Part shown: positions 3,587-61,989 of the stretch, one piece after another
How the letters are laid out: every line of letters starts with the position of its first letter
Position numbering within the stretch: the first letter of the stretch is position 1
Assembly (NCBI GenBank): GCA_951406725.2
Contig: OX597815.1
Location: forward strand, 119,226,001 to 119,290,000
DNA: 64,000 bases
Direction: 5' to 3'
Source of the DNA: Octopus vulgaris
Taxonomy: Eukaryota
Made by a program: the position numbers and the translations under genes
The notes under the pieces: model-generated
The model's database searches: none
Seen by the model: only the letters and a program-made list of their open reading frames with translations
Told to the model about the DNA's origin: nothing

Positions 3587-4227
3587 GTACTTGTTCTGTT
3601 GTCTCTTTTGCTGAACTGCTATGTTACAGAGATGTAAACATACCAATGCCAGTTGTCAAGCAGTGATGGGGACAAATACACACACACACACGACGTTAAG
3701 AAGGGCATCCTGCAGTAGAAACCATGCCAAAACCATTGCAGCTCCTTTCAAACCGCCCAACCCATACCAGCATGAAAAACAGACATTAAATGATGATGAT
3801 GATAATGATGACAATGGGCTTCTTTCAGTTTCCATCTACCAAATCCACTTACAAGGCTTTAGTTAGCTCAGGGCTGTACTAGAAGACATTTGCCCAAAGT
3901 GCCATGCCGGGGAACTGAACCTGGAACCATGTGGTTGGGAAGCAGAGTCGACTGGGTGCTTTTTACATGGCACCAGCACAGGCGAGGTCAATTTTGGTGT
4001 GGTTTTTACAGCTGGGTGCCCTTCCAAATGCCAACCACTTCACAGTGTGGACTGGATACTTTTTATATGACACCAGCCCTGGCAGCGTCACCAAGTAACT
4101 TGCAAGACAAGGAATTTTTGAGATGGGAGGGGGGCATTGGAGGAGGTGATCTTGTTAGAGTGTGATAGAGAGAGAAAGAGAGGTAGAAACAGGTGTCTTG
4201 CTATAGACACACACGTATGTATATGTA

Positions 4228-5018
4228 TATGCTGATGACCTGGCCCTCATAGCAGAATCATTACTGGAACTAGAAAAGAAATTTAGGATGTGGAAGCTAG
4301 GTTTAGAATCAAAAGGCCTTAGAGTCAATGTAGCGAAGACTAAAGTTCTAGTAAGTAGGAAGGCAAACTCATCACACACTCCCTCAGGTAGGTGGCCTTG
4401 CTCAATCTGTAGAAAAGGTGTCGGTAGAAACTCTAGACAATGTATCCAGTGTAAGCTATGGACACATAAGAGGTGCAGCAACATCAAAGGAAAATTAAAG
4501 CTTTCGTATGCAGCAGATGCACAGGGGCAATAGACACCACAGACACTCAGAAAATAGATTCCATCACACTCCAGGGGGAGAAATTAGAAGTAGTTGATAG
4601 CTTCCACTACCTAGGTGACCAAGTTAGTAGTGGGCGTGGATGCTCACAGGATGGCCAGCTGTGATTACCTTGGATCGTTGGGTGACTTGCTGTGCTTGAG
4701 GAGACCTATGAAGTCAAGTACATCAACATCAAAATAAAAATCAAATGGAAATTGTGGCTGTGATACTCGTGCCGGTGGCACGTAAAAAGCACCAACCATT
4801 TGTGGCCGTTACCAGCCTCTTCTGGCCCCTGTGCCAGTGGCATGTTAAAAGCACCCACAACACTCATGGAGTGATTGGCGTTAGGAAGGGCATCCAGCTG
4901 TAGAAACACTGCCAGATCAGACTGGAGCCTGGTGCAGCCTCCTGGCTTCCCAGACCCCGGTCGACCCATCCAGTCCATGCTAGCATGGAAAGCGGATGTT
5001 AAACAATGATGATGATGA
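4228..5018 (+). mobile_element. 5'-truncated, internally deleted RTE-clade LINE with 3' UTR and (GAT)n tail
   Basis: Begins TATGCTGATGACCTG (YADDL), then WKLGLESKGLRVNVAKTKVLV, WPCSICRKGVGRNS.QCIQCKLWTHKRCS, EVVDSFHYLGD; ends GGATGTTAAACAATGATGATG. Confidence 0.85.
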
Positions 5019-5900
5019 TATATATATATATATATATACACATACATATATTATTGGCTTCTCCACAGTTTACTAAATTTCTACCAAATTCACTCACAGG
5101 ACATTGGTCAGTCTGAGGCTATTGCAGAAACATTTAGCCAAAGTACTATACAGTGAGACTGAACCTGAAACCACATGGTTGTTAAGCAAGCTTCTTAACC
5201 ACTCAGCCATGCCTGAGCCAAACCATAAAGCCATGCATGACAAATTTTCACATTTTCCATATTACATCACCATATCTCTGCCACCATCAGCAATTCACCT
5301 CCTACTATCACACCCTTCTGGTGTGGTTACCTCTACTTTTGTTTTTTACTTATTATTTTCTACCACTTTATAACACCACCGTTACCACCATATCTAATTT
5401 CTTTTATATCACACTCTATCTTTCTCTAGATTCACCTCCCTGTTCACCCTGCTATCATTCTTTTTATCTCCAGGCTCCTAGCTTTTCTCCTTTCACCTTT
5501 TATTTCCTGTCTATTGTTCTCAAAGTCCACCGATTTTCCCATCATGCCCCTGTTCAGATAACACCAGAGTGAGCATGCAGTGAAGCTGTTTGTGTGTGTG
5601 TGTTTATACACAGAAAGAAGCAGCTACTGGTCTATTTTATAATTTTTATGCACATGGGTGGATATATATACAAGCACACACATTTACACCTACACATGTG
5701 CGTGTGCTTACACGTGATAAAATACTCATTTATGTCTAAAACAAACTGTATACAGAACTGCACATATACATACCAGTGTATATGTCTGTGTATGTATATG
5801 AATATATCTGTGTGTGTGTGTGTGTGTGTGTGTAAAATTTCTGTATGCATACACAAATTTATGTATTCACTCTTGTGTGCACATGTTTATACATACACAC

Positions 5901-7348
5901 TATCTCTCTCTCTACAAAATTTAACCTTAGGCGAGGCTACCTCAAGCCGTAATCCCATCTCTTCCCATCTCTTCCCATCTTTCAGCCATCTTTCAGCCAT
6001 CTTTCAGCCATTGGCGGTCTTTTTTCCTCCTCTTACCATTACGATTCTACAATTTAAATTCCCAATTCAACTAACTTACTTCTTAAATTTCAACTCCCGA
6101 TCGATGTCCGCAGCAAGTTCTTTAAAAATTTATCTTAATATTTCCATTCGTTGTTACTACGTTTATTCATACATTGTTACGAAAATTTAACCTTTTAAGG
6201 CTACTTTCAAGCCTTCGCCATAACTTGATTTATCTTTCTATCTCTCTCTCTACAAAATTTAACCTTAGGCGAGGCTACCTCAAGCCGTAATCCCATCTCT
6301 TCCCATCTCTTCCCATCTTTCAGCCATCTTTCAGCCATCTTTCAGCCATTGGCGGTCTTTTTTCCTCCTCTTACCATTACGATTCTACAATTTAAATTCC
6401 CAATTCAACTAACTTACTTCTTAAATTTCAACTCCCGATCGATGTCCGCAGCAAGTTCTTTAAAAATTTATCTTAATATTTCCATTCGTTGTTACTACGT
6501 TTATTCATACATTGTTACGAAAATTTAACCTTTTAAGGCTACTTTCAAGCCTTCGCCATAACTTGATTTATCTTTCTATCTCTCTCTCTACAAAATTTAA
6601 CCTTAGGCGAGGCTACCTCAAGCCGTAATCCCATCTCTTCCCATCTCTTCCCATCTTTCAGCCATCTTTCAGCCATTGGCGGTCTTTTTTCCTCCTCTTA
6701 CCATTACGATTCTACAATTTAAATTCCCAATTCAACTAACTTACTTCTTAAATTTCAACTCCCGATCGATGTCCGCAGCAAGTTCTTTAAAAATTTATCT
6801 TAATATTTCCATTCGTTGTTACTACGTTTATTCATACATTGTTACGAAAATTTAACCTTTTAAGGCTACTTTCAAGCCTTCGCCATAACTTGATTTATCT
6901 TTCTATCTCTCTCTCTACAAAATTTAACCTTAGGCGAGGCTACCTCAAGCCGTAATCCCATCTCTTCCCATCTCTTCCCATCTTTCAGCCATCTTTCAGC
7001 CATTGGCGGTCTTTTTTCCTCCTCTTACCATTACGATTCTACAATTTAAATTCCCAATTCAACTAACTTACTTCTTAAATTTCAACTCCCGATCGATGTC
7101 CGCAGCAAGTTCTTTAAAAATTTATCTTAATATTTCCATTCGTTGTTACTACGTTTATTCATACATTGTTACGAAAATTTAACCTTTTAAGGCTACTTTC
7201 AAGCCTTCGCCATAACTTGATTTATCTTTCTATCTCTCTCTCTACAAAATTTAACCTTAGGCGAGGCTACCTCAAGCCGTAATCCCATCTCTTCCCATCT
7301 CTTCCCATCTTTCAGCCATCTTTCAGCCATCTTTCAGCCATTGGCGGT
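5901..7348 (+). repeat. Tandem array of ~4.4 near-identical 327-338 bp monomers
   Basis: Unit starts TATCTCTCTCTCTACAAAATTTAACC at 5901, 6239, 6577, 6904 and 7231; the length difference is one 11-nt CCATCTTTCAG subunit. Confidence 0.95.
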
Positions 7349-7360
7349 GCGCCCGCCCCC

Positions 7361-7522
7361 CACCCCCACCACCAATACCGATGAACACTGTTCTCACCCC
7401 CACCACCAATACCGATGAACACTGTTCTCACCCCCACCACCAATACCGGTGAACACTGTTCTCACCGCCAACACCACCAATACTGGTGAACACTGTTCCT
7501 CACCCCCCACCACCAATACCAG
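7361..7522 (+). repeat. 34-bp minisatellite, ~4.6 copies
   Basis: CACCCCCACCACCAATACCGATGAACACTGTTCT at 7361, 7395 and 7429, diverged copies at ~7463 and ~7501. Confidence 0.9.
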
Positions 7523-8479
7523 TATACCCTGTCCTCACCATCTACACCGGATACGCCTTACTCATCTACACCGGGTAAGCCCTACTCCCTCCTCCTCCCC
7601 CACTACCCCTTCTCCTCATATGCTTTCACTGTGAAAAGACAAGCTGCTAGCGCCATAGCTCATCAACTGCCCACCGATCTTACGCTTCCTCCGGACACTG
7701 CTTCATTCCGACTATCCCCCTTTAGCACCCTCCCGCCTCGTAATATCCTACGTTTTTATTTCTTAGGAACCTACACCAACCCTTCCTGCCATCGTTCCTC
7801 CTTACCCCAACCTTCCCCACTGGTTGCTCCCCTATATTACCCACCTCAACTGGACCCCCCTCCCCAACTCAACTCTAGAATATCTGTATTCTTTCCTCTA
7901 CCTAATAACGTTACTCAGTGACGATAACGAATGTCTTTATTTCTTAGGAACCTACACCAACCCTTCCTTACTCAGTGACGATAAATGCTGTGACTACAAA
8001 GACCCGGGCTGCTTTCTGCAGCAATTCCACATACCCCCTACTCATTCTAAGTACCCCAGATCCCCAAAGTACCCTGGATCCCCAAAGTACCCCGGACCTC
8101 GTTGCCCCCGTGCCGCTGACACGTTAAAATGCTCGAACCGATCGTGACGATGCCGGACCCTCCGGCCCCTGTGCAGGTGGCACGTAAAAAGCACCCAATC
8201 CACTCACGGAGTGGTTGGCGTTAGGAAGGGCATCCAGCCGTAGAAACTCTGCCAGATTCAGACTGGAGCCTGGTGCGGCCCCTGGCTTCCCAGACCCGGT
8301 CAAACCGTCCAACCCGTGCTAGCGCGGAAAGCGGACGTTAAACGATGATGATGATGATGATGATGACACCACACATATATATGTGTGTGTGTATACGTAT
8401 ATACATGTGTGTATATATGTATATATGTATGCTCTTTTTTAATTATTTTAAATCTTTCTCTGTGGAAGGAACTGGTTTC

Positions 8480-13450: not shown

Positions 13451-13454
13451 TATA

Positions 13455-13587
13455 AGGGCATCCAGCCGTAGAAACTCTGCCAGATCAGACTGGAGCCCGG
13501 AGCAGCCCCTGGCTTCCCAGACCTCGGTCGAACTGTCCAACCCGTGCTAGCACGGAAAACGGACGTTAATGATGATGATGATGATGA
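13455..13587 (+). mobile_element. RTE-tail SINE fragment in (TA)n, tail-to-tail with the next element
   Basis: AAGGGCATCCAGCCGTAGAAAC...CGGACGTTAATGATGATG. Confidence 0.85.
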
Positions 13588-13599
13588 TATATATATATA

Positions 13600-14798
13600 C
13601 ATCATCATCATCATCATCATCATCGTTTAACGTCCGTTTTCCGCGCTAGCACGGGTTGGACGGTTTCGACCGGGGTCTGGGGAGCTCAGGACTGCCCCAG
13701 GCTCCAGTCTAGTCTGGCAGTGTTTCTACAGCTGGATGCCCTTCCTAACGCCAACCACTCCGCGAGTGTAGTGGGTGCTTTTTACGTGCCACCTGCACAG
13801 GTGCCAGAGGGGTCTGGCATCGGCCACGTTCGGATGGTGCTTTTTTTTTTTTTTTTTTTGGGGGGGGTGCAGAAATATAGGGGAGCACCAGTGGGAGGGG
13901 TGGTTCAGGACAGGTTCTAGGCAAGTAGAACGTAGGATATCGAGAGAGGGGTAATGCATGGTGAAATAGCGTATTGAAGAGGGGGTTCAAAGAGTAGACA
14001 CCTATAATGGTGGTGGGAGAAACGACATCCGGTATAGTTGGAGCAAAATAGAGATATCCGGTATTGGTGGTGGGGGTGGGTAGGGCGGGCGCGCCACGAA
14101 GAATCGGCAGCCAATTTCTAATCAGCCCTGTAAGGGAGATAGATCTTAAATATCTATAACGATAACTAGTGAATTATACAGAATATGCAAAAACGAGGCG
14201 AGGCTGAAATAGTAAACAGAGTGGCGACTAGGGGGATCAGAATAATAATAATTAATAAATAATAATAATAAATAGAGATACGGATGAATTAAAGTTCAAA
14301 GATTTCTTATCTTGGGATCACTTCGTTTACGGACAGACTTGGCAAAAGGAATTCGGAATCAAGAATGAAGCAGGTTACTAGCTTAAGTATGCATAGCCAT
14401 GGCGAGGAGTAGGAAGAGAAGGAGTCCAGACAGACAATGTAAAAAAGAGGGGAGAGAAACCCCGCGAAGAATCGGCAGCCAATTTCTAATCAGCCCTGTA
14501 AGGGAGATAGATCTTAAATATCTATAACGATAACTAGTGAATTATACAGAATATGCAAAAACGAGGCGAGGCTGAAATAGTAAACAGAGTGGCGACTAGG
14601 GGGATCAGAATAATAATAATTAATAAATAATAATAATAAATAGAGATACGGATGAATTAAAGTTCAAAGATTTCTTATCTTGGGATCACTTCGTTTACGG
14701 ACAGACTTGGCAAAAGGAATTCGGAATCAAGAATGAAGCAGGTTACTAGCTTAAGTATGCATAGCCATGGCGAGGAGTAGGAAGAGAAGGAGTCCAGA
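13600..14798 (-). mobile_element. Composite non-autonomous retroposon, copy 2 (368-bp monomer array, GC motif, body, RTE tail)
   Basis: Monomer repeat at 14097 and 14465 (period 368); minus-strand motif GCGCGCCCGCCCTACCCACCCCCACCACCAATACCG; (AT)nACA on both flanks. Confidence 0.75.
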
Positions 14799-14850
14799 TA
14801 TATATATATATACACATATACATGTTTTGCTCCTTGTTTTTTCTGTATCC

Positions 14851-14886
14851 CTTTCTGTAGAAGAGCGTAGGCCCGAAACGTAAAAG
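14851..14886 (+). ncRNA. Hammerhead-like motif (variant core CUGUAGA) in a PLE terminal-repeat remnant (~14826-14955)
   Basis: CTTT-CTGTAGA-A-GAGC[GTAG]GCCC-GAAA-CG-TA-AAAG; stem I CTTT/AAAG. Confidence 0.55.
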
Positions 14887-14954
14887 ACTTTTTCTATTCC
14901 TGAGCGTTATACTAATACATCTGTTTGTTTTGTACACCACCTGTCTTCGTCTTT

Positions 14955-14993
<39 letters not shown>

Positions 14994-15210
14994 ATATGTA
15001 TATATATATATTTATTTGGGTGATGTGGGAGTCGGTTTCTTGCTATTCTGTGTTCTCAGTGTCATCAAGCAAGTTATGTCATAACAGTCAAAAACTCAGA
15101 GAAATAAGCAAGTGATTCAACTAAAATATAAATATAATTAATCTCAACTATAGCTGTGAGTACTTTTGCTTCTGACAGTCAATCTAAATGTATATATGCA
15201 TAATATATTA

Positions 15211-15246
<36 letters not shown>

Positions 15247-15689
15247 GATGCCTGCAGTCTTTCAATCCTATACAGAACAACATTAAGTAACTTCCATTAT
15301 CCTTCATCTAAAATACTTCCCTCTAATCAATAAAATCTAGGAGGTTTTAATCACCCAATATTTCGTAACTGAAGATTAAGGTTTTGATTCTTGTTTGGAT
15401 TGGATATGTGTGTGTGTCTGTGGCTACTCATGTATGTAATGTCCTTTAGTTCTTCAGTATGTTACAGTTATCTCACCTAAGACCATACTGGAACATCACC
15501 TTTAGCGGGTTTTTTATCGTCTCTGCATAGGAATCTTGTGTGTGTGTGTGTTTGTGTGTATGAGTTTGTGTGTGTTTGTGTGGGTTTTTCTCTAGTTGTT
15601 TGATCAACAAACTGCTGGCAGGTCCAGGGCTTTGGTTGTTGTCTTTTGCAGATATCTGATCTGGTATTTTAGAGAACAATGTATGTAGG

Positions 15690-15900
15690 TATCATCATCA
15701 TCATCATCATCATCATTGCATAGCATCTGTTTTCTATGTTGATATGGTTTGGATGGTTTGAAAGGAACTTGCAAGCCAGAGAGCTGTACCAGGCTCCATT
15801 TGTCTGTTTTGATATGGTTTCTACAGCTAGATGCCTTTCCTAATGCCAACCATTTTACAGAGTGCATTGGGTGCTTTATACATGGCACCAGTACCAGTGC
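15690..15900 (-). mobile_element. RTE-tail SINE
   Basis: (CAT)n then TTTCTACAGCTAGATGCCTTTCCTAATGCCAACC; further copies at ~22715-22900, 34505-34730, 36083-36540, 40160-40350, 61385-61795 (-) and 24945-25320, 29230-29733, 31900-32303, 32600-32933, 37940-38170, 57790-58245 (+). Confidence 0.8.
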
Positions 15901-16115
15901 TTCACATGCAGTGCCAGAAGACTTTTGTCATGTTTTCTAATCCTTTTGGGAGAAATTTTATAAAGTTGAAGTCCTTTAAACACAGAAGTGTTACTGTATA
16001 GATACCTGATGTAAGTGTTTAAGCAAAAGAATATTCAGATCTGACAGTGACTTTCATTACTTTTCTTATCTTGTATGCTAAAGTTTGGCATGCAATTTTC
16101 ATAAATCTGTCTTCC

Positions 16116-16169
<54 letters not shown>

Positions 16170-16389
16170 TATGGCATATAGTTCTTACTGGCATTCCAAA
16201 AAGTAGAGACATAATGCACAAATACTTTCTCAATAGTTAAAGTCTATGACTTTTCTGATTTCCTTTGTGAATGCTTTCTCTAATTTCTCTATATGGTGGC
16301 TAAATGAAGAAGTTACAGAGTATATATTTTCAACTATGTTAAGGGCAGTGGATGAAAAGCCTTGTATTTGTTCTGAAAGAGGTTGACAT

Positions 16390-16580
16390 TGGTCTTTTTA
16401 TGGGTATGCATAGCTCGGACCATCTTCCACCATCTCCTTGTGATGCTCTTCTGCAAGTTACTCATGCTGGCCCTCTCTGTAACTTTTTCATTTGTGACGT
16501 GGTCACTCATAGAAATTCTTAGTACAGTCCTAAGAAGGAACATAAAGGGGAACAGTATCCATCCCTGATGTACCCCTAAT
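16390..16580 (-). mobile_element. RTE/BovB-like LINE C-terminal fragment
   Basis: LRTVLRISMSDHVTNEKVTERASMSNLQKSITRRWWK resembles LR.IL.I.W.D.V.N.EV..RA......I..RR..W. Confidence 0.6.
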
Positions 16581-17139
16581 GTAGTCAGCTATTTTTCTTT
16601 TCCTTTTCTGCCTTTCTCTTTCCATTATTCAAAAGAAAACACATGACTGTAGATTTTTAAAATCTTTGCTTTAACTTCCTATTAGTCATGCTTATGTATT
16701 ATTTCCATGCCATAATGAGGTTTGGTTTTTACAATGGTAACACCTCCTTCAGAAATTATGGCATTTGCATTGTAGTATTTATTTAATGTGCATGCATTGG
16801 TGTTTCTTCATGAACATTCTGCAGTTTTATTAGTGGTTGTGTGATAGGTTTTTCATATTGTTGGCATAACTGTAGCTTAATTTAAGGTTGTCCATGTTAA
16901 AAAAACTTTCTATATTTATAGTTGGCAGATGACTTATCTTTTTTCTAGGCAAAAATATTTATAAGAAAAGTAGGGGCTTCCTAACATGCTATGGTCTTTA
17001 TTATGCTATTATTTGTATTATTGTAGTTCTTGACAAATTCTAGGCTATAGGTATCAGTCATGTGAAATTGAGTAAAACTAGAGATTTACTTATTTTTGAT
17101 GCTCAGTAATATTACACAAAACCGCATGAAAACAAACAC

Positions 17140-18174: not shown

Positions 18175-18274
18175 CTAGGTAATCGATTACTGAGCCTAAA
18201 TGAGCTGGGTTTCTATAAGAAGCCTGCAAAATTTTAAGTCACATGGAGCTGATTCAAACTGTTTTAAATAATAA

Positions 18275-18750
18275 GAATGTGCTGGTTTAGTCATGTGATG
18301 CATATGGATGAGAACAGCTGCATAAAGAAGTTCTGAGCTCTAATTGTGGTAGGTACCTGTGGAAGGGGTAGATCTTAGAAGACATGAGACAAAGTGGTGA
18401 GAAAGGATCTTTGGATGCTAGGCCTCACTGAGGAAATGACAAGGGACCGGGAGGTGTGGCAATTTGCTGTACTGGATAAGACATGTCAAGCTCTGTAAAA
18501 TCACTGTCTTCCACACATACAGGCTTGTCCTTTCAGGTGCTGGTGCCACTTAAAAAGTACCCGTGCTGATTAACGCACCTGTGCCGGTGTTGCATAAATG
18601 CACTCAATCCTGTGGCATGTAAAAAGCACCCAGCACACTCTGTTAAGTGGTTGGCATTAGGAAGGGTACCCAGCTGTTGAAACCATGCCACAACTGACAG
18701 TTGAAGTCTGGACAGCTCCCTGTTAGCCAACTCCATCTCAAACCGTCCAA
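18275..18750 (+). mobile_element. RTE LINE 3' end and tail
   Basis: W.SHVMHMDENSCIKK, GTCGRGRS.KT..KVVRKDL, then the RTE tail. Confidence 0.7.
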
Positions 18751-24940: not shown

Positions 24941-26169
24941 CAGAGCAGCTGACTGGCTTCTGTGCCGGTGGCATATAAAAAGCACCATTCAAGTGTGATC
25001 GTTACCAGCATCGGCTTACTGGCACTTGTGCCGGTGTCATGTGAAAAAGTATTCAAGTGAGGTCGTTGCCAGTGCCACTCGACTGGCTCTTGTGCAGGTG
25101 GCACATAAAAAACACCATTTGAGCGTGGTGGTTGCCAGTACTGCCTAACTGGCCCCGTGCCGGTGGCACGTAAAAGCACCCATTACACTCTCTGAGTGGT
25201 TGGCATTAGGAAGGGCATCCAGCTGTAGAAACTCCTGGTGCAGCCATCTGGCTCACCAGTCCCCGGTCAAATCGTCCAACCCATGCCTGCATGGAAAGTG
25301 GATGTTAAACGATGATGATGCACTACAGACTTCTTTTAGTTTCCATCTACCAAATTTACCCACAAGGCTATGGTCAGCTCTTGGCTATAGAAGAAAAGAT
25401 TTGCTCAAGGTACCATACAGTAGAACTAAACACAGAACTGTATGGTTGGGAAGCAAATTTCTTACCACACAGCCATGCCTGTGTCTGTATAAAATCAAAT
25501 TAGACTGCAAGGCTGGGATACAGTTATATTATATTGTTATATTTCGGAATGGTCATTTTGCCAGTTTAGCCAATAAAATCACATGCACTATATATTTGGT
25601 GTTACTTTGCTTCAGTGTTATTTATTTTTTACATTAATCTTAATCTTATTTCGGCCAGAGTTCTTTCGTCACACTCCTGTGACCGCATCAGTGGTCCTTT
25701 GTTTTCTTCTTTCTTATTTGTGTCTCCCCTTACTAACCGTCAGCCATTTTGTATTTTTATTGTATGTCTTCATTTGTGCATGCTTATATCTCTATGTGCG
25801 TCTATGTTTATTTAGTGATGGGAACAGTAACGACAGAAATAGTAACGATAATGAAGATAACCCTAGAAAGGCCATTAATATTTATACCCACCCCTTTGAC
25901 ACTCAATTCTTCAACGTATGACAGAGACATAATAAGACAGAGGCCCAACAACTCGGGATTAAACCTGCATGTGGCCTACATAAGCTTATTCAGCACACGA
26001 GGAACAGAGAAGTGGTATGCCTTCCCAAAAATAAGTCCGGCAGGATGTCAATAGACAGCTTACCGAACTACATCCAGGCAATACAACTGCATATCGCCAA
26101 AAAAAACAAAACAAAAAAAAAACAACTTTACAGGCGCATGAGGAGAGAGAAAAGGTCCTCAACGCCCAC

Positions 26170-28140
26170 ATGATGATGTGGACAATTGTTCTGGGACCCC
26201 AGAAACGTACAGTAAATAATTTCCAAGCCTGGAACAATGATATCCCGGCACTGTATGGACTTCGCAAGGACCATAAAGTAACCACTGACCCTATAGCAGG
26301 ACCACCAACAAGACCAGTCTGTGGAGCGAATATCGCTAGCAATTACAGAATCTCCTACTTCCTCTCAATGATCATACGCCCTATAATCCAGATGTCACCT
26401 GATGTTTGTGACAGCACAGAAGATCTCCTCAGCAGGATCAATGACTGTAACAATACTTGTGACCTGACAGGATGTATGGTGGGTAGCATGGATGTGGTAT
26501 CCCTATACCCATCGATCAACGTAGATTTTGCGGTGGAGAAGTGTGTGGAGATGATCAATGAGAGCCAGATGGAGTTCCGTAATGTCAACACAGAGGAACT
26601 GGGCCTCCTACTCAGACTGACATGTAACAATGAATACCTAGATAAACATAATCTTAGTAGTTTCTGCCCCAGTAGATGTTTAAGAGGTAGACCGCCCACA
26701 ATTACTTCTATGGCTAGGAAGACCCATATAGAAAGATGGCGCAGATGGACCAGAGCCATACGGAGCCCTGCAAATGTCCATCAGGTAAAGAAAATGATCG
26801 CACATGCACTAGGAGATAGTATAAGAGTTACCCTAAAAGGCCACACGTTTAAGTTTAACAATAAAATATATGCTCAGGACGAGGGGGCAGCCATCAGCGT
26901 TAGTATCGCTGGTGATGTGGCCAACCTTTTCATGGTATGGTGGGACAGAAGGCTTAAAGAATGCCTAACACAGAACTCCATACTCGTAAACATGTACTCT
27001 CGCTATGTTGATGATTTCAACATAGTGGTAAAGGCACCCCCACAAGAGAGTACTGTTGATATAGTAATAGAAACTAATACTATGGAGAGCATCCAGCAAA
27101 TAGCTAACTCCATCCACCAGAGTATTAAGGTCACAATAGACTACCCCACTAAATACCCCAACCATAGACTACCAGTACTAGACACTGAACTCTAGCTAGA
27201 AATTGTGAATAATAAAACCTAAATCCTTCATTCATACTAAGCCAAACCTATGGCCTCAAAATACTTGATCCACCGGAACTCAGCCATTGCGGACAATGCC
27301 AAATTCAATATTTTGATGGCAGACCTCGTCAGAATAATGAGAAATGTGTCACGCATGTGCGAGCCTACATAGTTAAAGAGACACATACAATATTTCATTT
27401 ACCGCATGCAGTTCTCAGGTTACAGCCATAAAGAAAGGATCAGCGTATACAAAGGAGCCATGAAGAAATTTGATAATATATTATGTAATGATAGGAATGG
27501 GATTTGCCCACTCTATAGGAACAAGTCATGGAACACTATAGAAAGGACAAAAAAGAAAATAGGGAAGGCCAACTCTTGGTATGATAGCCATAGATACCAG
27601 AGTGTCATGTTCGTTGACACCACCCCTGGAGGTGAACTGACGTACCGCTTTAGAAGGACCCTAGACAAACTTAAGCTAAGGATTAAGGTTGTTGAAAAGC
27701 CAGGCAACCCTATCAAATCTATAATTGGTAGAACCTATCCTTCTAGTAGAACCCCCTGTACTGATAAGTACTGTACTGTATGTAGATTTAGCCCACAAAC
27801 AAACTGTAAAGCCAGAAATGTAGTCTATAGTATAAGATGTATAGAGGGACGATGCAGTAACAAGACAGCGACATACGTAGGGGAAACGGCAAGAAGCATA
27901 GGAGAGCGGGTAAATGAACATTGGAAACAACTCAAAGAAGGAAAAAGCTCATCGATTCTGTAGCAACACGTCGAACAGGAACACGGGGGATCAATCAACA
28001 ACATAGAAATTAAAATATTGTCCACACATAGAACAGATGCAACAATCAGACAAATTACAGAAGCTACACACATAATAGAAAATAAACCTAGCCTGAATAG
28101 AAAACTAGAATGGAACAATAGTACACACCACAACATATGA
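26170..28140 (+). pseudogene. PLE polyprotein (reverse transcriptase plus GIY-YIG endonuclease), disrupted
   Basis: ORF 26170-27195: LYGLRKDHK, RPVC, MDVVSLYPSI, GAAISVSIAGDVANLFM, RYVDD, LPVLD. ORF 27406-27963: C....C..C linker, NVVYSIRC...YVGETARSIGERVNEH. Ends LNRKLEW; several TAG/TAA stops. Confidence 0.92.
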
Positions 28141-28513
28141 TGGTAGAGGATCCCGAAAACATAATAAATACACAGATAAATAAACAAATAGAAATAAATA
28201 ACTATTTTTTAAAATTTATTATTATTATTACTAGTATTGTTGTTATACATACATACAAGCATATGTAATGATAATAATAAAGGGATGTAAACACATGAAC
28301 AAAATAAGAATAAACAAAAACAACAACAAAAACAAATTACATGAACGTATATAAACAGAAGATACAAATATTACAGGCATCCCCCCACACACACACTAAA
28401 TAAACATAGACGCACATAGAGATATAAGCATGCGCAAATGAAGACATACAATAGAAATACAAAATGGCTGACGGTTAGTAAGGAGAGACACAAATAAGAA
28501 AGAAGAAAACAAA

Positions 28514-28558
28514 GGACCACTGATGCGGTCACAGGAGTGTGACGAAAGAACTCTGGCC
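28514..28558 (+). ncRNA. Hammerhead-like motif in the PLE terminal repeat (variant core CUGAUGC); inverted copy at ~25653-25697
   Basis: GGACCA-CTGATGC-G-GTCAC[AGGAGT]GTGAC-GAAA-GAAC-TC-TGGCC. Confidence 0.6.
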
Positions 28559-30029
28559 GAAATAAGATTAAGATTAATGTAAAAAATAAATAACACTGAA
28601 GCAAATTAACACCAAATATATAGTGCGTGTGATTTTATTGGCTAAACTGGCAAAATGACCATTCCGAAATATAACAATATCTGTTTCAACACACGACTTC
28701 ACATAAAAAATCTTGCACAACAAATATATAAAAGTTATATTATAGTTATATTAAAAGAAACACTCAAACCTTAGGTATAGTGATATAAAAAAAGAAAATC
28801 ATTCTATTTTTAGCAGAGTCTCACTTTTACTTTATTTTAACAAGGTAAACTTTGACAGTGATTTCAGCACAATTGCTTATAACTAGGCTGACAAAGTCAG
28901 CTGAGCTCAAACTTTGAAGTCCCTGTCAAATTTTTCCTTGTTAAGATAATTATAATTATATATTAGCTTGTTTATGTATGTCTATGCATTTTGGTGGGTA
29001 TGACAAAACTGGTGTGCCAAATAAAACTAAAACCCTTCAAGGTGTTGCTCCAGCATGGCTAGAGTCCAGTGATTGAAACTAGTTAAAACAAAGCATGATG
29101 TATGTCCCTTTAAGCTTGTTTGACTGTCTTGATCAAAAAATACGTACAAGACAAAGTACTAGTTTCATCATAAATGACAAAGTTTTCAGCATGGCTAATA
29201 TATATTTCCCTAACATTTTTCTTGAGACCTCTGGAAGTATGCTGTGACTGAGAAGACCCGGCAAATAAAGTGAGTCCACAGCTGTAACCTACACCAGTGT
29301 TGCATAACCAGCCCACTCAAAAGTATCTTGGATCATAGTGCAACATGCCGAATTTGAGGAGACCTACTGAGTCAAGTACATCAACATCAAATCAAATGGA
29401 AATTGTAGTTGTGTGCCCCATGCTGGTTGCATGTAAAAAGCACCATCTGAACATGGCCAATGCCAGTGCCCACTTTGACTGGCTTCCGGTGGCACATAAA
29501 AAACATCATCCAATCATGGTTGATGCCAGCTATTCTGGCCCCTGTGCTGGTGGCACATAAAAAGCACACACTACATTCACGGAGTGGTTGGCTTTAGGAA
29601 GGGCATCCAGCTGTAGAAACACTACCAGATCAGATTGGGGCCTGGTGCAGCCTCCTGATTTCCCAGACCCCTGTCGAACCGTCCAACCCATGCCAGCAAG
29701 GAAAACAGACGTTAAACGATGATGATGATGATGAAAAGAACAAGATCTATATAAGTACTTCATTAGCTTAAAGCTGTTTCTGCTATAAGAAGCAGTGCAT
29801 TCAGAGCTGAGTGGCTGTGTAAGCTAATGAAGGTAACTCCTGTTCTTTGCCATTCATTAACTGATATTACACTCTGTACTCACCTAGTGCAGCACTCTAA
29901 ATCATATGTATATTGAGTTCTAACTAATAAATAGTATCACTATGTCTAAGCAAAATCATAATGGATATAAACATGCACACACATGGAAATATATACATAT
30001 ATTTATATGCAAATTTGTTTCTATACATG

Positions 30030-43450: not shown

Positions 43451-43793
43451 ATTAATAGTTATCGCCAAGCTAATATGGCAGTCCAGAAATATAGGATGAA
43501 TGCTGCCGTCAATTAGCTCCAAGATGCCATCACCTCTAGCTAGCTATGTGACACACAAACCTGTGTCCATTATAACCTTTAAACAGGGGAGGTCAACCGC
43601 TTCCCCTGAAACTAGTCTGCAGATGCCTGACCAGCAAGGGGAAGCAGCTGACCTCCCCTGTTCGAAGGTTATGATGGACACAGGTTCATGTGTCACATAG
43701 CTAGCTAGAGGTGATGGCCTCTTGGAGCTAATCGATGGCAGCATTTGTCCTATATTTCTGGACTGCCGTATTAGCTTGGCAATAACTATTAAT
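43451..43793. mobile_element. Foldback/palindromic MITE (~157-bp arms, ~29-bp spacer)
   Basis: ATTAATAGTTATCGCCAAGC... and ...GCTTGGCAATAACTATTAAT; the near-identical ORFs 43500..43700 (+) and 43544..43744 (-) reflect the palindrome. Confidence 0.9.
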
Positions 43794-57492: not shown

Positions 57493-58476
57493 GATAAATT
57501 TTAACAATAAAATCTAACATCGGCCCCCAATGACCATATGGATCTTGGCTGTAAACTACTGGTTGTGAACCATAGCTATAGCTGTCTGATTTATACCAAA
57601 CTTTGATGTTTTATGGCAATGAAATTTGAAAAGTAAAAGTGGTGGGCAAAAAGTAAGGAGTTAGAAAAACTGGATATGATTCATTGGAGTTATAGTGAAA
57701 ATCTGAGAGGCTAATTAACTGAATATATGATAAAAACATGACAATATGTCAGAAGTGTAGGCTACTATATGATTCTGTGATATCGCAGCCATGACCAATG
57801 CTAGTGTTGCATGTCCAGCCCATTTAAAAGTACCTTTGATGCATCGGATGATATGATATGCTTGAGACCTGTTGAGTCAAGTAAAACCAAAATCGTAGCT
57901 GTGGCCAATACCTCCTGACTGACTCTCATTCTGGTAGCACATAAAAAGCACCATCTGAACGTGGTCAATGCCAGTGTCCCCTGACTGGCTCCTGTGTCAG
58001 TGGCACGTAAAATGCACTATCCAAACATGGTCAATGCTAGTGCCCTCTGACTGGCTCCAATGACGGTGGCATGTAAAAAGCACCCACTACACTCTCAGAA
58101 TGGTTGGCATCAGGAAGAGCATCAAGCTGTAGAAACATTGCTAGATCAGACTGGAGCGTGGTGCAGCCGCTGGCTTTCCAGATCTTTGTCAAACCGTCCA
58201 ACCCATGCGAGCATGGAAAGTGAACATTAAACAATGACGATGATACTGATACTATGTAACAATCAGATCTTAGAAAGTTAGGTCTTTCAGAAATACTTGG
58301 GGCAAAAAATGTATGGTTCATGTGCAAAACCATTCAGTTGATTGGAGCATACAAAATCACCCACATTAATGATTGCCATCACAATGGCAGTTTGATGATG
58401 ACAAAGGTTGCAATGTTATTATTGTTGTTCTTCTTGTAGCTTTGGCTCCATTGTTTTACATTAATCAGTGTGTTGA

Positions 58477-60812: not shown

Positions 60813-61989
60813 TTAAATAGAAAATTATACACATGAATGCAGTGAAAGTTGGAGATCTGTCATGAGTAATTTTGAGGTTATTAAAAGAATCTGGATAAGT
60901 CATGAACCAGAGCTACATGAATTTCCTGTAAATTAAGCTTGCTCAGATTAGCATGAGATTGATCCTCCAACCATTTTTATCTTCCATGGCATGTGACAGT
61001 TCTTGGTGGCATCTGCTGATATCTGTTAAGTGATTGATGTACCAGGTACAACATATATATTCACTCATTATTCATTTTATCATACAATAAAAAATGTTTA
61101 AGGTCTTGATTAATGAAAGTTTACAAGATGATTCTTATATTTATTAACAATATATTACACATATATTTACAATTCAGAGTAACCATCTTTTCTTTCACCA
61201 TAGCCCTTAATCATCATTTTATAGTTTTATCACCTTGCAGTTCTTTATATCAGCTATTTTCAATGTTACAATTTGTTTGTATCTTGTTTGAGCCACTGTA
61301 AAAAGAATGTTAGAAAGCATACATTTGCAACTATTTTTGCAAATAAGAATGTTTTAATTTATGGTTGAAAAATGGGTGAATTCATCATCATCATCATAAT
61401 CATCGTCATCACCATCATCGTTTAACATCTGCTTGCCATACTGGCATGGGCTGGATGGTTTAACTGAGGACTGGCAAGCCAGGAGGCTGCACCAGCCTCC
61501 AATCTGATCTGACAAGATTTCTACAGCTGGATGCCCTTCCTAATACCAACCATTCTGAGAGTATAGTGAGTGCTTTTTTATGTGCCACAGGCATGGGGGC
61601 CAGTCAGGCAGTACTGGCATTGACCACACTTGAATGGTGCTTTTTACATGCTACCGGCATGGGAGCCAGCCAGGTGGCGCTAGCAATGACCATGCTCAAA
61701 TGGTGCTTTTTACGTGCCACAAGCATGGGACCAGTCAGGCTGCACTGTCATCGACCATGTTCATATGGTGCTTTTTACGTGCCACTGGCATGTTTAAATA
61801 ATAGATAAATCTATATGCCACACCCAATGTCTTCACAGAGCTACAAAGATGATTATGGCTATGCTGAGGTGCCCAAAGTTGGGTGTAAGCCTCACTAAAT
61901 AGTTGTTTCTTGCATTACCAACAGGGTACAGTAAATATGAATTCTTCATTCACTAAATGTGTCTGAAACTTTAGGAAGTTTATTCCATA

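What the first reader, a model, noticed from the sequence alone, without database searches (positions are those of the whole stretch)
13600..14798. Second composite copy: different 368-bp monomer, same grammar
Seen (- strand): a 5'-truncated monomer, a full monomer, then CGCGCCCGCCCTACCCACCCCCACCACCAATACCG, a short body, a C-run plus A-run, and an RTE tail with (GAT)n. The two monomer types do not align overall but share short cues. Both end in G(C/T)GG; both restart with a pyrimidine run then TTAC(C)ATT; and both carry CTA(C)TTTCA(A)GCCT(T)CGCC about 120-155 nt before the monomer end. Inference: conserved core-promoter motifs in rapidly diverging monomers. Both arrays are incomplete at the distal end, as expected if transcription starts inside a monomer or insertion is 5'-truncated.
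Basis: partly seen in the sequence, partly recalled or inferred. Interest (0 to 1): 0.8.

Follow-up and report, generated by a model that had tools for sequence, protein, structure and literature searches.

The report
Octopus retroposon with swappable monomer heads
This is one young copy of an abundant, non-coding repeat in an octopus-like genome that ends in a LINE tail and begins with tandem 368-base units; a second copy nearby has the same middle and tail but unrelated units, so the units likely act as an exchangeable promoter, as in mouse L1, which is untested.

Summary
The anatomy is confirmed on the minus strand: a 337-bp partial plus a 368-bp full monomer (1 mismatch), a 35-bp linker, a C-rich body, C8-A19, and an RTE-type tail with (GAT)8 inside (TA)n. 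The shared monomer 'cues' mostly fail testing. A and B monomers align no better than shuffles, and the 19-mer motif is matched in 17 of 60 shuffles. Only the monomer boundary (GCGG + pyrimidine tract) is modestly above chance. The real conservation lies downstream: linker, degenerate 34-bp repeat, body (P=0.0005) and tail (91%). Contigs of four public runs cover monomer and body deeply and at similar depth, with head-to-tail monomer joints in two organisms, so this is a dispersed family, not a satellite or a one-off. No protein homologue, tRNA head or ribozyme was found. Best reading: a non-autonomous retroposon mobilised by an APE-RT-PHD LINE, whose monomer array likely serves as a Pol II promoter that has been replaced on a shared tether. 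That architecture is known from rodent L1; I found no report of it for RTE-tailed or mollusc elements. Promoter function, start sites and origin (deleted LINE or true composite) are untested.

The parts
14462..14798 (-). Element B: distal, 5'-incomplete monomer (337 bp, starts at nt 32 of the unit), abutting (TA)n
14094..14461 (-). Element B: full 368-bp monomer; pyrimidine tract at start, internal (ATT)n stretch, ATTGG near end; CpG o/e 0.90 vs 0.34 for the window
   Evidence: deep cover and head-to-tail joints
14059..14093 (-). Element B: conserved linker (GC-box-, CACCC- and CCAAT-like words), 92% to A over 37 nt
13868..14058 (-). Element B: C-rich non-coding body with about three degenerate copies of A's 34-bp repeat; homologous to A body
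   Evidence: P=0.0005; no protein hit
13841..13867 (-). Element B: C8 + A19 join between body and tail; the last five A belong to the tail's AAAAAGCACC
   Evidence: reads skipped this stretch
13600..13845 (-). Element B: LINE 3' tail with terminal double stem-loop (13662-13631) and (GAT)8; 91% to A tail
5900..7347 (+). Element A: array of 118+338+327+327+338-bp monomers, unrelated to B monomers; GCCATCTT words near each end
7348..7984 (+). Element A: linker, 34-bp tandem repeat (7361-7520, 4.6 copies), body, rearranged join
7985..8007 (+). Element A: likely remnant of the ORF2 end (20 of 23 nt match to 29239-29261, E 0.06)
8008..8366 (+). Element A: 3' region and LINE tail with (GAT)n
13454..13588 (+). 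Neighbouring 5'-truncated young tail, tail-to-tail with B in the same (TA)n; 94% to A tail; not part of B

Best explanation
B is a young copy of a dispersed, non-coding repeat family built as monomer array + linker/repeat + C-rich body + LINE tail, which is likely copied in trans by the genome's RTE-type LINE, with the monomer array likely acting as an RNA polymerase II promoter that has been swapped between subfamilies. Shown: the anatomy; homology of linker, body and tail between A and B; no detectable homology of the monomers; many copies; a LINE-derived 3' stem-loop. Inferred steps: (1) transcription would start in or at a monomer, using signals near the boundary and in the linker; (2) the LINE's reverse transcriptase would bind the 3' stem-loop and (GAT)n and prime in (TA)n-rich DNA; (3) each new copy loses whatever lies upstream of the start, or is truncated, leaving a partial distal monomer; (4) the array would be refilled by local duplication of the element's own monomer, keeping units near-identical; (5) now and then a new unrelated unit would replace the old one in front of the same linker.
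For: Tail: 19 tail-core loci in 64 kb. At 18268-18531 an RT ORF end runs into a tail. The B end reads NRPTRASAENGR, like C-termini of APE-RT-PHD proteins P0016, P0019 and P0088, and folds as a double stem-loop. A, B and the 13454 tails group together (FastTree 0.84, 11 tails) and keep CpG (o/e 0.8 vs 0.09-0.48). Chance of a same-strand tail this close to both bodies is about 1e-4. One contig each in X1 and X4 joins the linker to a tail core with other, unread sequence between (13794/14060; 21 nt on the short side), which points to a third locus. Family: 20 of 24 listed runs, 11 studies, hold the stretch. Median summed depth, monomer/body, is 1.09 (X1) and 0.67 (X4), about 1/75 of the tail core. 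Single variant contigs reach depth 14,000-17,000 in X4, against 10-100 for its listed pieces. Head-to-tail monomer joints occur in X1, X4 and X9. The window's base at 14369 is nearly absent from the runs (X1: 599,179 of 599,198 read otherwise) yet is in both B monomers, as local duplication predicts. No tRNA, no Rfam family at its cut-off, no hammerhead core, so Pol III heads or ribozymes do not explain transcription. Precedent: rodent L1 monomers + tether, with non-homologous 5'UTRs and conserved tethers (PMC5381506, PMC9022269, passages).
Against: No promoter or start-site data. The two 5' ends do not coincide with one motif. GCCATCTT (the mouse YY1 word) is in A only; no TATA in either. Internal monomer motifs are at chance level. 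No target-site duplication can be told from the flanking TA/CA repeats. The body-tail join of B was skipped by the read tool, and no listed contig spans the element. Summed contig depth is not a copy number. The shared private base could be a polishing artefact of the assembly. The hairpin form shared by A and B also occurs in distant elements, so it may be ancestral rather than derived. The clade name RTE rests on recalled sequence features and domain order, not on a tree with references.
Confidence: 0.5

Rival explanations
1. A and B are internal-deletion products of autonomous LINEs whose own 5'UTR is monomers + tether. The promoter reading holds, but the architecture belongs to the LINE and the short copies are ordinary bipartite derivatives.
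For: A keeps a likely ORF2-end remnant before its 3' region, and B joins further downstream. RTE is one of four clades known to give bipartite non-autonomous LINEs (PMC5786205, parts 2-3 of 5 read).
Against: No RT or endonuclease fragment follows a body in this window (111 proteins by tblastn). No body-containing longer protein was found (weak evidence). No loose end at the body's 3' side was among the 24 shown of 643, so this is largely untested.
Confidence: 0.25
2. The monomers are passengers (captured host DNA or 3' ends of another element, as with the GilM 3' repeats). Transcription comes from the linker or from read-through.
For: Monomers are unrelated and have no shared factor site above chance. 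The conserved GC-box/CACCC/CCAAT-like words are in the linker. The B monomer has an internal (ATT)n stretch that could be an old tail.
Against: Both subfamilies independently carry arrays ending at the same linker base with a similar boundary. Units are of fixed length with no tail at the boundary. CpG is retained. Monomer depth tracks body depth, so there is no large free satellite.
Confidence: 0.17
3. Chance adjacency of a monomer+body element (possibly with its own poly(A), the A19) and an abundant LINE tail, or an assembly artefact.
For: Tails are dense (19 in 64 kb); B has an A-run exactly at the join; the join was not seen in reads.
Against: Two loci plus a contig-level third show the same order and strand; joint chance about 1e-4. 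A has no A-run at its join. No upstream part of a tail flanks either array. Both tails are of the young group.
Confidence: 0.05
4. Retrozyme-like or TRIM-like tandem element read on the other strand (purine tract before each unit).
For: Unit size 327-368 bp; the complement of the pyrimidine tract resembles a polypurine tract (recalled features).
Against: No CUGANGA core on either strand; no ribozyme family; monomers fold no better than shuffles (z -0.2 to +2.4); no TG..CA ends or flanking duplication.
Confidence: 0.03

Closest known systems
Rodent L1 5'UTR (monomer array + tether; A, F, Tf, Gf types)
   Same: Tandem CpG-rich monomers with a partial distal unit; non-homologous monomer types in front of a conserved tether; GCCATCTT in the A-type monomer (PMC5381506, PMC9022269, passages).
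   Different: No ORFs follow; tail is RTE-type with (GAT)n, not poly(A); monomers are AT-rich (GC about 36-38%); YY1 word absent from B; promoter activity untested; mollusc host.
Bipartite non-autonomous RTE elements and RTE-tailed SINEs (RTESINE, WALLSI1/1A with swapped 5' regions, Ceph-SINEs; PMC5786205)
   Same: Non-coding, LINE 3' end, microsatellite tail; WALLSI1/1A have 5' regions of unknown origin.
   Different: 1.2-2.5 kb, tandem head, central repeat, no tRNA/5S head; the tail core word was not found in that paper's supplement.
SVA/LAVA VNTR composite retrotransposons (PMC4432496, PMC3287187; abstract starts only)
   Same: Non-autonomous composite with 5' repeats, a central variable tandem repeat and exchangeable modules.
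   Different: No sequence relationship tested or expected; no Alu-like or SINE-R part; SVA uses L1 and poly(A), this uses a LINE-specific stem-loop; hominoid-specific.
RTE-2_OV of Octopus vulgaris (PMC9115989)
   Same: An RTE LINE of an octopus with a microsatellite-rich 3' end.
   Different: Zinc-finger rather than PHD; no monomers mentioned (0 occurrences); two of its primers do not match this window at 3 mismatches.

Membership tests
RTE-type LINE-mobilised non-autonomous element | 3' end shared with a LINE of the same genome | tested here: met
   tail follows an RT ORF end at 18268-18690; 19 loci; matches C-termini of APE-RT-PHD proteins
RTE-type LINE-mobilised non-autonomous element | 3' stem-loop and microsatellite tail | tested here: met
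   double stem-loop, (GAT)8
RTE-type LINE-mobilised non-autonomous element | Target-site duplication, T-stretch signature (PMC6007223, abstract) | tested here: inconclusive
   B sits in (TA)n with G(TA)6-7 on both sides; low complexity; none clear for A
RTE-type LINE-mobilised non-autonomous element | Partner RT falls in the RTE clade | not tested
   no reference tree; domain order APE-RT-PHD and recalled motifs only; RTE-BovB is reported expanded in cephalopods (PMC10294476, passage)
RTE-type LINE-mobilised non-autonomous element | No coding capacity; many dispersed copies | tested here: met
   (no hits)
Bipartite non-autonomous LINE | [quoted passage not shown] | not testable with these tools
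   no genome held; no full-length copy in the window
SINE (tRNA/5S/7SL head, Pol III) | Small-RNA-derived head with A/B boxes | tested here: not met
Rodent-L1-type monomer promoter | Tandem monomers with partial distal unit and conserved tether | tested here: met
Rodent-L1-type monomer promoter | YY1 word GCCATCTT with 5' ends clustered at it | tested here: not met
   word in A only; the two 5' ends are not at it
Rodent-L1-type monomer promoter | Promoter activity and start sites within monomers | not testable with these tools
   only contigs available
Rodent L1 itself | ORF1/ORF2 and poly(A) tail | tested here: not met
SVA/LAVA | Alu-like + VNTR + SINE-R/LA, poly(A), L1-mobilised | tested here: not met
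   tail is the local LINE 3' end with (GAT)n; only the central tandem repeat is analogous
Retrozyme / Penelope pseudo-LTR | Hammerhead core in each monomer | tested here: not met

The most novel reading that the evidence does not exclude
Octopus has evolved, independently of rodents, a self-refilling monomer promoter on a non-coding LINE parasite, and several unrelated monomer types have replaced one another in front of one conserved linker: an SVA-like composite family showing a promoter arms race outside mammals, still mobile today.
Probability: 0.35. Interest if true: 0.72.

Novelty: new variant of a known kind. Interest (0 to 1): 0.5.

Why it matters
Frequent replacement of 5' promoters was argued to be specific to mammalian L1 among the vertebrates compared (PMC5381506, passage). 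A mollusc element with unrelated monomer heads on a shared tether would extend that to an invertebrate and to a non-autonomous element. It would give an independent system for asking how monomer arrays are refilled and why promoters are swapped. The latest octopus repeat annotation lists 893 recently active SINE families as unclassified (PMC13282606, Table 1); a defined young family with a probable Pol II promoter would also be a candidate source of octopus lncRNAs and insertion polymorphisms.

Tried and rejected
No own genome was held. The linker 21-mer in viral (3 loci) and metagenome (10 loci) contigs gave only chance microbial matches; 0 of 13 loci had a BLAST hit to the window. A tail 27-mer gave 0 hits in viral and genome contigs. 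Protein searches with the A body frame, the B body frame and A's post-join peptide found nothing. Rfam gave 41 weak matches, none at its cut-off, nearly all on flanking microsatellites or the tail-to-tail hairpin. Older pyrimidine-rich bodies upstream of four other tails: 16 comparisons, four with P 0.005-0.035, no consistent homology. TCT-, E2F- and CGCCAT-like words at or in both monomers were noticed by eye; TCT words are common in these strands and k-mer tests do not single them out; motif names are recalled. In run X9 (RNA is a guess) the monomer/body depth ratio is 0.30 against 0.67-1.09 in DNA runs; contigs cannot show RNA level, so this is not used. The O. vulgaris transcriptome in the supplement of PMC9115989 is not held as text, and the repeat library of PMC13282606 is not in its supplement, so a deposited consensus could exist unseen. 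Look-ups in earlier findings gave no look-alike sequence.

Full report
Setting. The window is microsatellite-rich animal DNA. An RT fragment at 4225-4479 has its best named hits in Octopus bimaculoides (72-75%) and one in O. vulgaris, so the host is very likely an Octopus; the species was not determined. No genome was held, so evidence from outside the window comes from one run search, one laying of 4 of the 24 listed runs on 13640-14461, protein searches and papers.

Observation. On the minus strand B consists of a 337-bp partial monomer (14798-14462), a 368-bp monomer (14461-14094), a 35-bp linker, a C-rich body, C8-A19, and a tail ending in (GAT)8 at 13600. The two monomers differ at one base. 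Element A (5900-8366, +) has 118+338+327+327+338-bp units identical except for an 11-bp repeat count, then the linker, a 34-bp repeat, a longer body and the same kind of tail.

The shared cues. Whole monomers align no better than dinucleotide shuffles (P 0.63 local, 0.2 global; 0.39-0.81 under six scorings). The internal 19-mer is 3 edits apart; 17 of 60 shuffles do as well. TTAC(C)ATT has 31 sites in the window. Shared k-mers are not enriched; CpG-containing ones on either strand are borderline (P 0.05-0.10). Only the boundary stands out: the window -8..+30 ranks in the top 0.47% of 4884 pairs, with five other windows at 0.03-0.34, and the choice was post hoc. So there is a weak case for one shared boundary signal and none for a conserved internal motif.

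What is conserved. The linker is 92% identical over 37 nt and occurs nowhere else in the window. Beyond it the bodies are homologous (score 251 vs 175 +/- 16; 1 of 2000 shuffles); B carries about three decayed copies of A's 34-bp repeat. The tails are 91% identical, group with the neighbouring tail at 13454 (support 0.84 among 11 tails) and keep their CpGs. Conserved downstream parts with unrelated heads point to head replacement.

The tail. There are 19 tail-core loci in the window. One follows an RT ORF end (18268-18531). The last 45 nt of B translate to NRPTRASAENGR, matching the C-termini of APE-RT-PHD proteins from other organisms (P0016, P0019, P0088; 13 of 111 proteins passed a loose pattern), and fold into a double stem-loop. 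A keeps a likely ORF2-end remnant (20 of 23 nt, E 0.06; P0007 ends YAVLEKTRQAK); B joins further downstream at the A-run. The chance that both bodies have a same-strand tail so close is about 1e-4. RTE as clade name is inferred, not tested on a tree. Flanks are (TA)n or CA/TA repeats, so target-site duplications cannot be judged.

It is a family. Twenty of 24 listed runs from 11 studies and three organism labels plus a marine sample hold the stretch. In X1 (about 80% read) and X4, monomer and body are covered at summed depths of a few 1e5, ratio 1.09 and 0.67, about 75-80-fold below the tail core (medians of 8 monomer and 7 body bins, repeat-masked and edge bins left out). Summed depth is not a copy number, but single variant contigs at 14,000-17,000 against 10-100 for X4's listed pieces suggest at least hundreds of units. 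Head-to-tail joints with variable letters at the start of the unit occur in X1, X4 and X9; one variant start resembles the start of the linker. One contig each in X1 and X4 joins linker and tail core across other sequence, with only 21 nt on the short side. The tool skipped 13831-13873, showed 24 of 643 loose ends, and lists no piece spanning the element, so B's own join and what follows the body in other copies remain unseen. The window's base at 14369 is almost absent from the runs yet present in both B monomers: local duplication or conversion, or a polishing artefact.

What it is not. No tRNA, no Rfam family at cut-off, no hammerhead core, no unusual folding, no protein relative of either body. 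Not a large satellite, by the depth ratio.

Mechanism. Most likely (0.5) a non-autonomous retroposon copied by the local LINE through the 3' stem-loop, transcribed by Pol II from a monomer array that loses its distal part at each round, is refilled by local duplication, and has been exchanged for an unrelated unit at least once. Anatomy, homology pattern and abundance are shown; promoter function, mobilisation in trans and refilling are inferred. The main rival (0.25) keeps the promoter reading but makes the head the 5'UTR of an autonomous LINE. A passenger role for the monomers has 0.17.

Comparison with what is known. Rodent L1 has monomer arrays, a tether more conserved than the monomers, and 5' ends clustered within the distal monomer, near GCCATCTT in Tf (PMC5381506 and PMC9022269, passages). 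Here that word is in A only. RTE gives bipartite derivatives and SINEs with swapped heads (PMC5786205, parts 2-3 of 5 and a supplement search). SVA/LAVA are the known VNTR composites (search listings only). The octopus papers seen do not describe this element: PMC13282606 (part 1 of 3, passages, supplement search), PMC9115989 (passages, section 8), PMC10294476 (passages); PMC6007223 abstract only. Nine searches found no report of monomer-headed RTE-tailed elements in molluscs. Repbase, Dfam, subscription papers (the original octopus SINE and Ceph-SINE papers, recalled only) and two oversize supplements were not seen.

Verdict. Real, multi-copy, young and architecturally unusual; a new variant of LINE-tailed non-autonomous retroposons that looks convergent with the rodent L1 promoter. 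Interest 0.5, rising to about 0.7 if promoter activity and multiple monomer types are confirmed.

Noticed in passing
window 25531-28680: RT-like ORF (26035-27195; no Pfam hit) and GIY-YIG-like ORF (27373-27963; Pfam E 8e-4, below cut-off) between 287-bp inverted arms 98% alike: likely a Penelope-like element.
   Followed up: partly
window 13454-13624: Two young LINE tails lie tail-to-tail in one (TA)n site and form a long inverted repeat that draws spurious miRNA matches.
   Followed up: partly
window 24952-25180, 57937-58084, 61570-61792: 64-66-bp tandem units in variable number just upstream of the tail core; B keeps about one unit.
   Followed up: no
window 4077, 22873, 34690, 54170 (minus strand, upstream of the tail core): An older tail type preceded by a shared TTGTCTTGC-containing, partly pyrimidine-rich stretch; possibly another non-coding tailed family. 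No firm homology to A or B bodies.
   Followed up: partly
window 13625-13665 (minus): The non-coding terminal stem-loop corresponds to the last codons of ORF2 in related LINEs of other organisms, so the recognition hairpin is coding there and has become 3'UTR here.
   Followed up: partly
window 43451-43793: 157-bp inverted arms, 91% complementary, 29 nt apart.
   Followed up: no
proteins P0006, P0044, P0092, P0097: LINE RT/PHD proteins filed under bacterial names (Herbaspirillum, Salmonella) on 1-1.5 kb contigs: probably animal DNA contamination in those assemblies.
   Followed up: no
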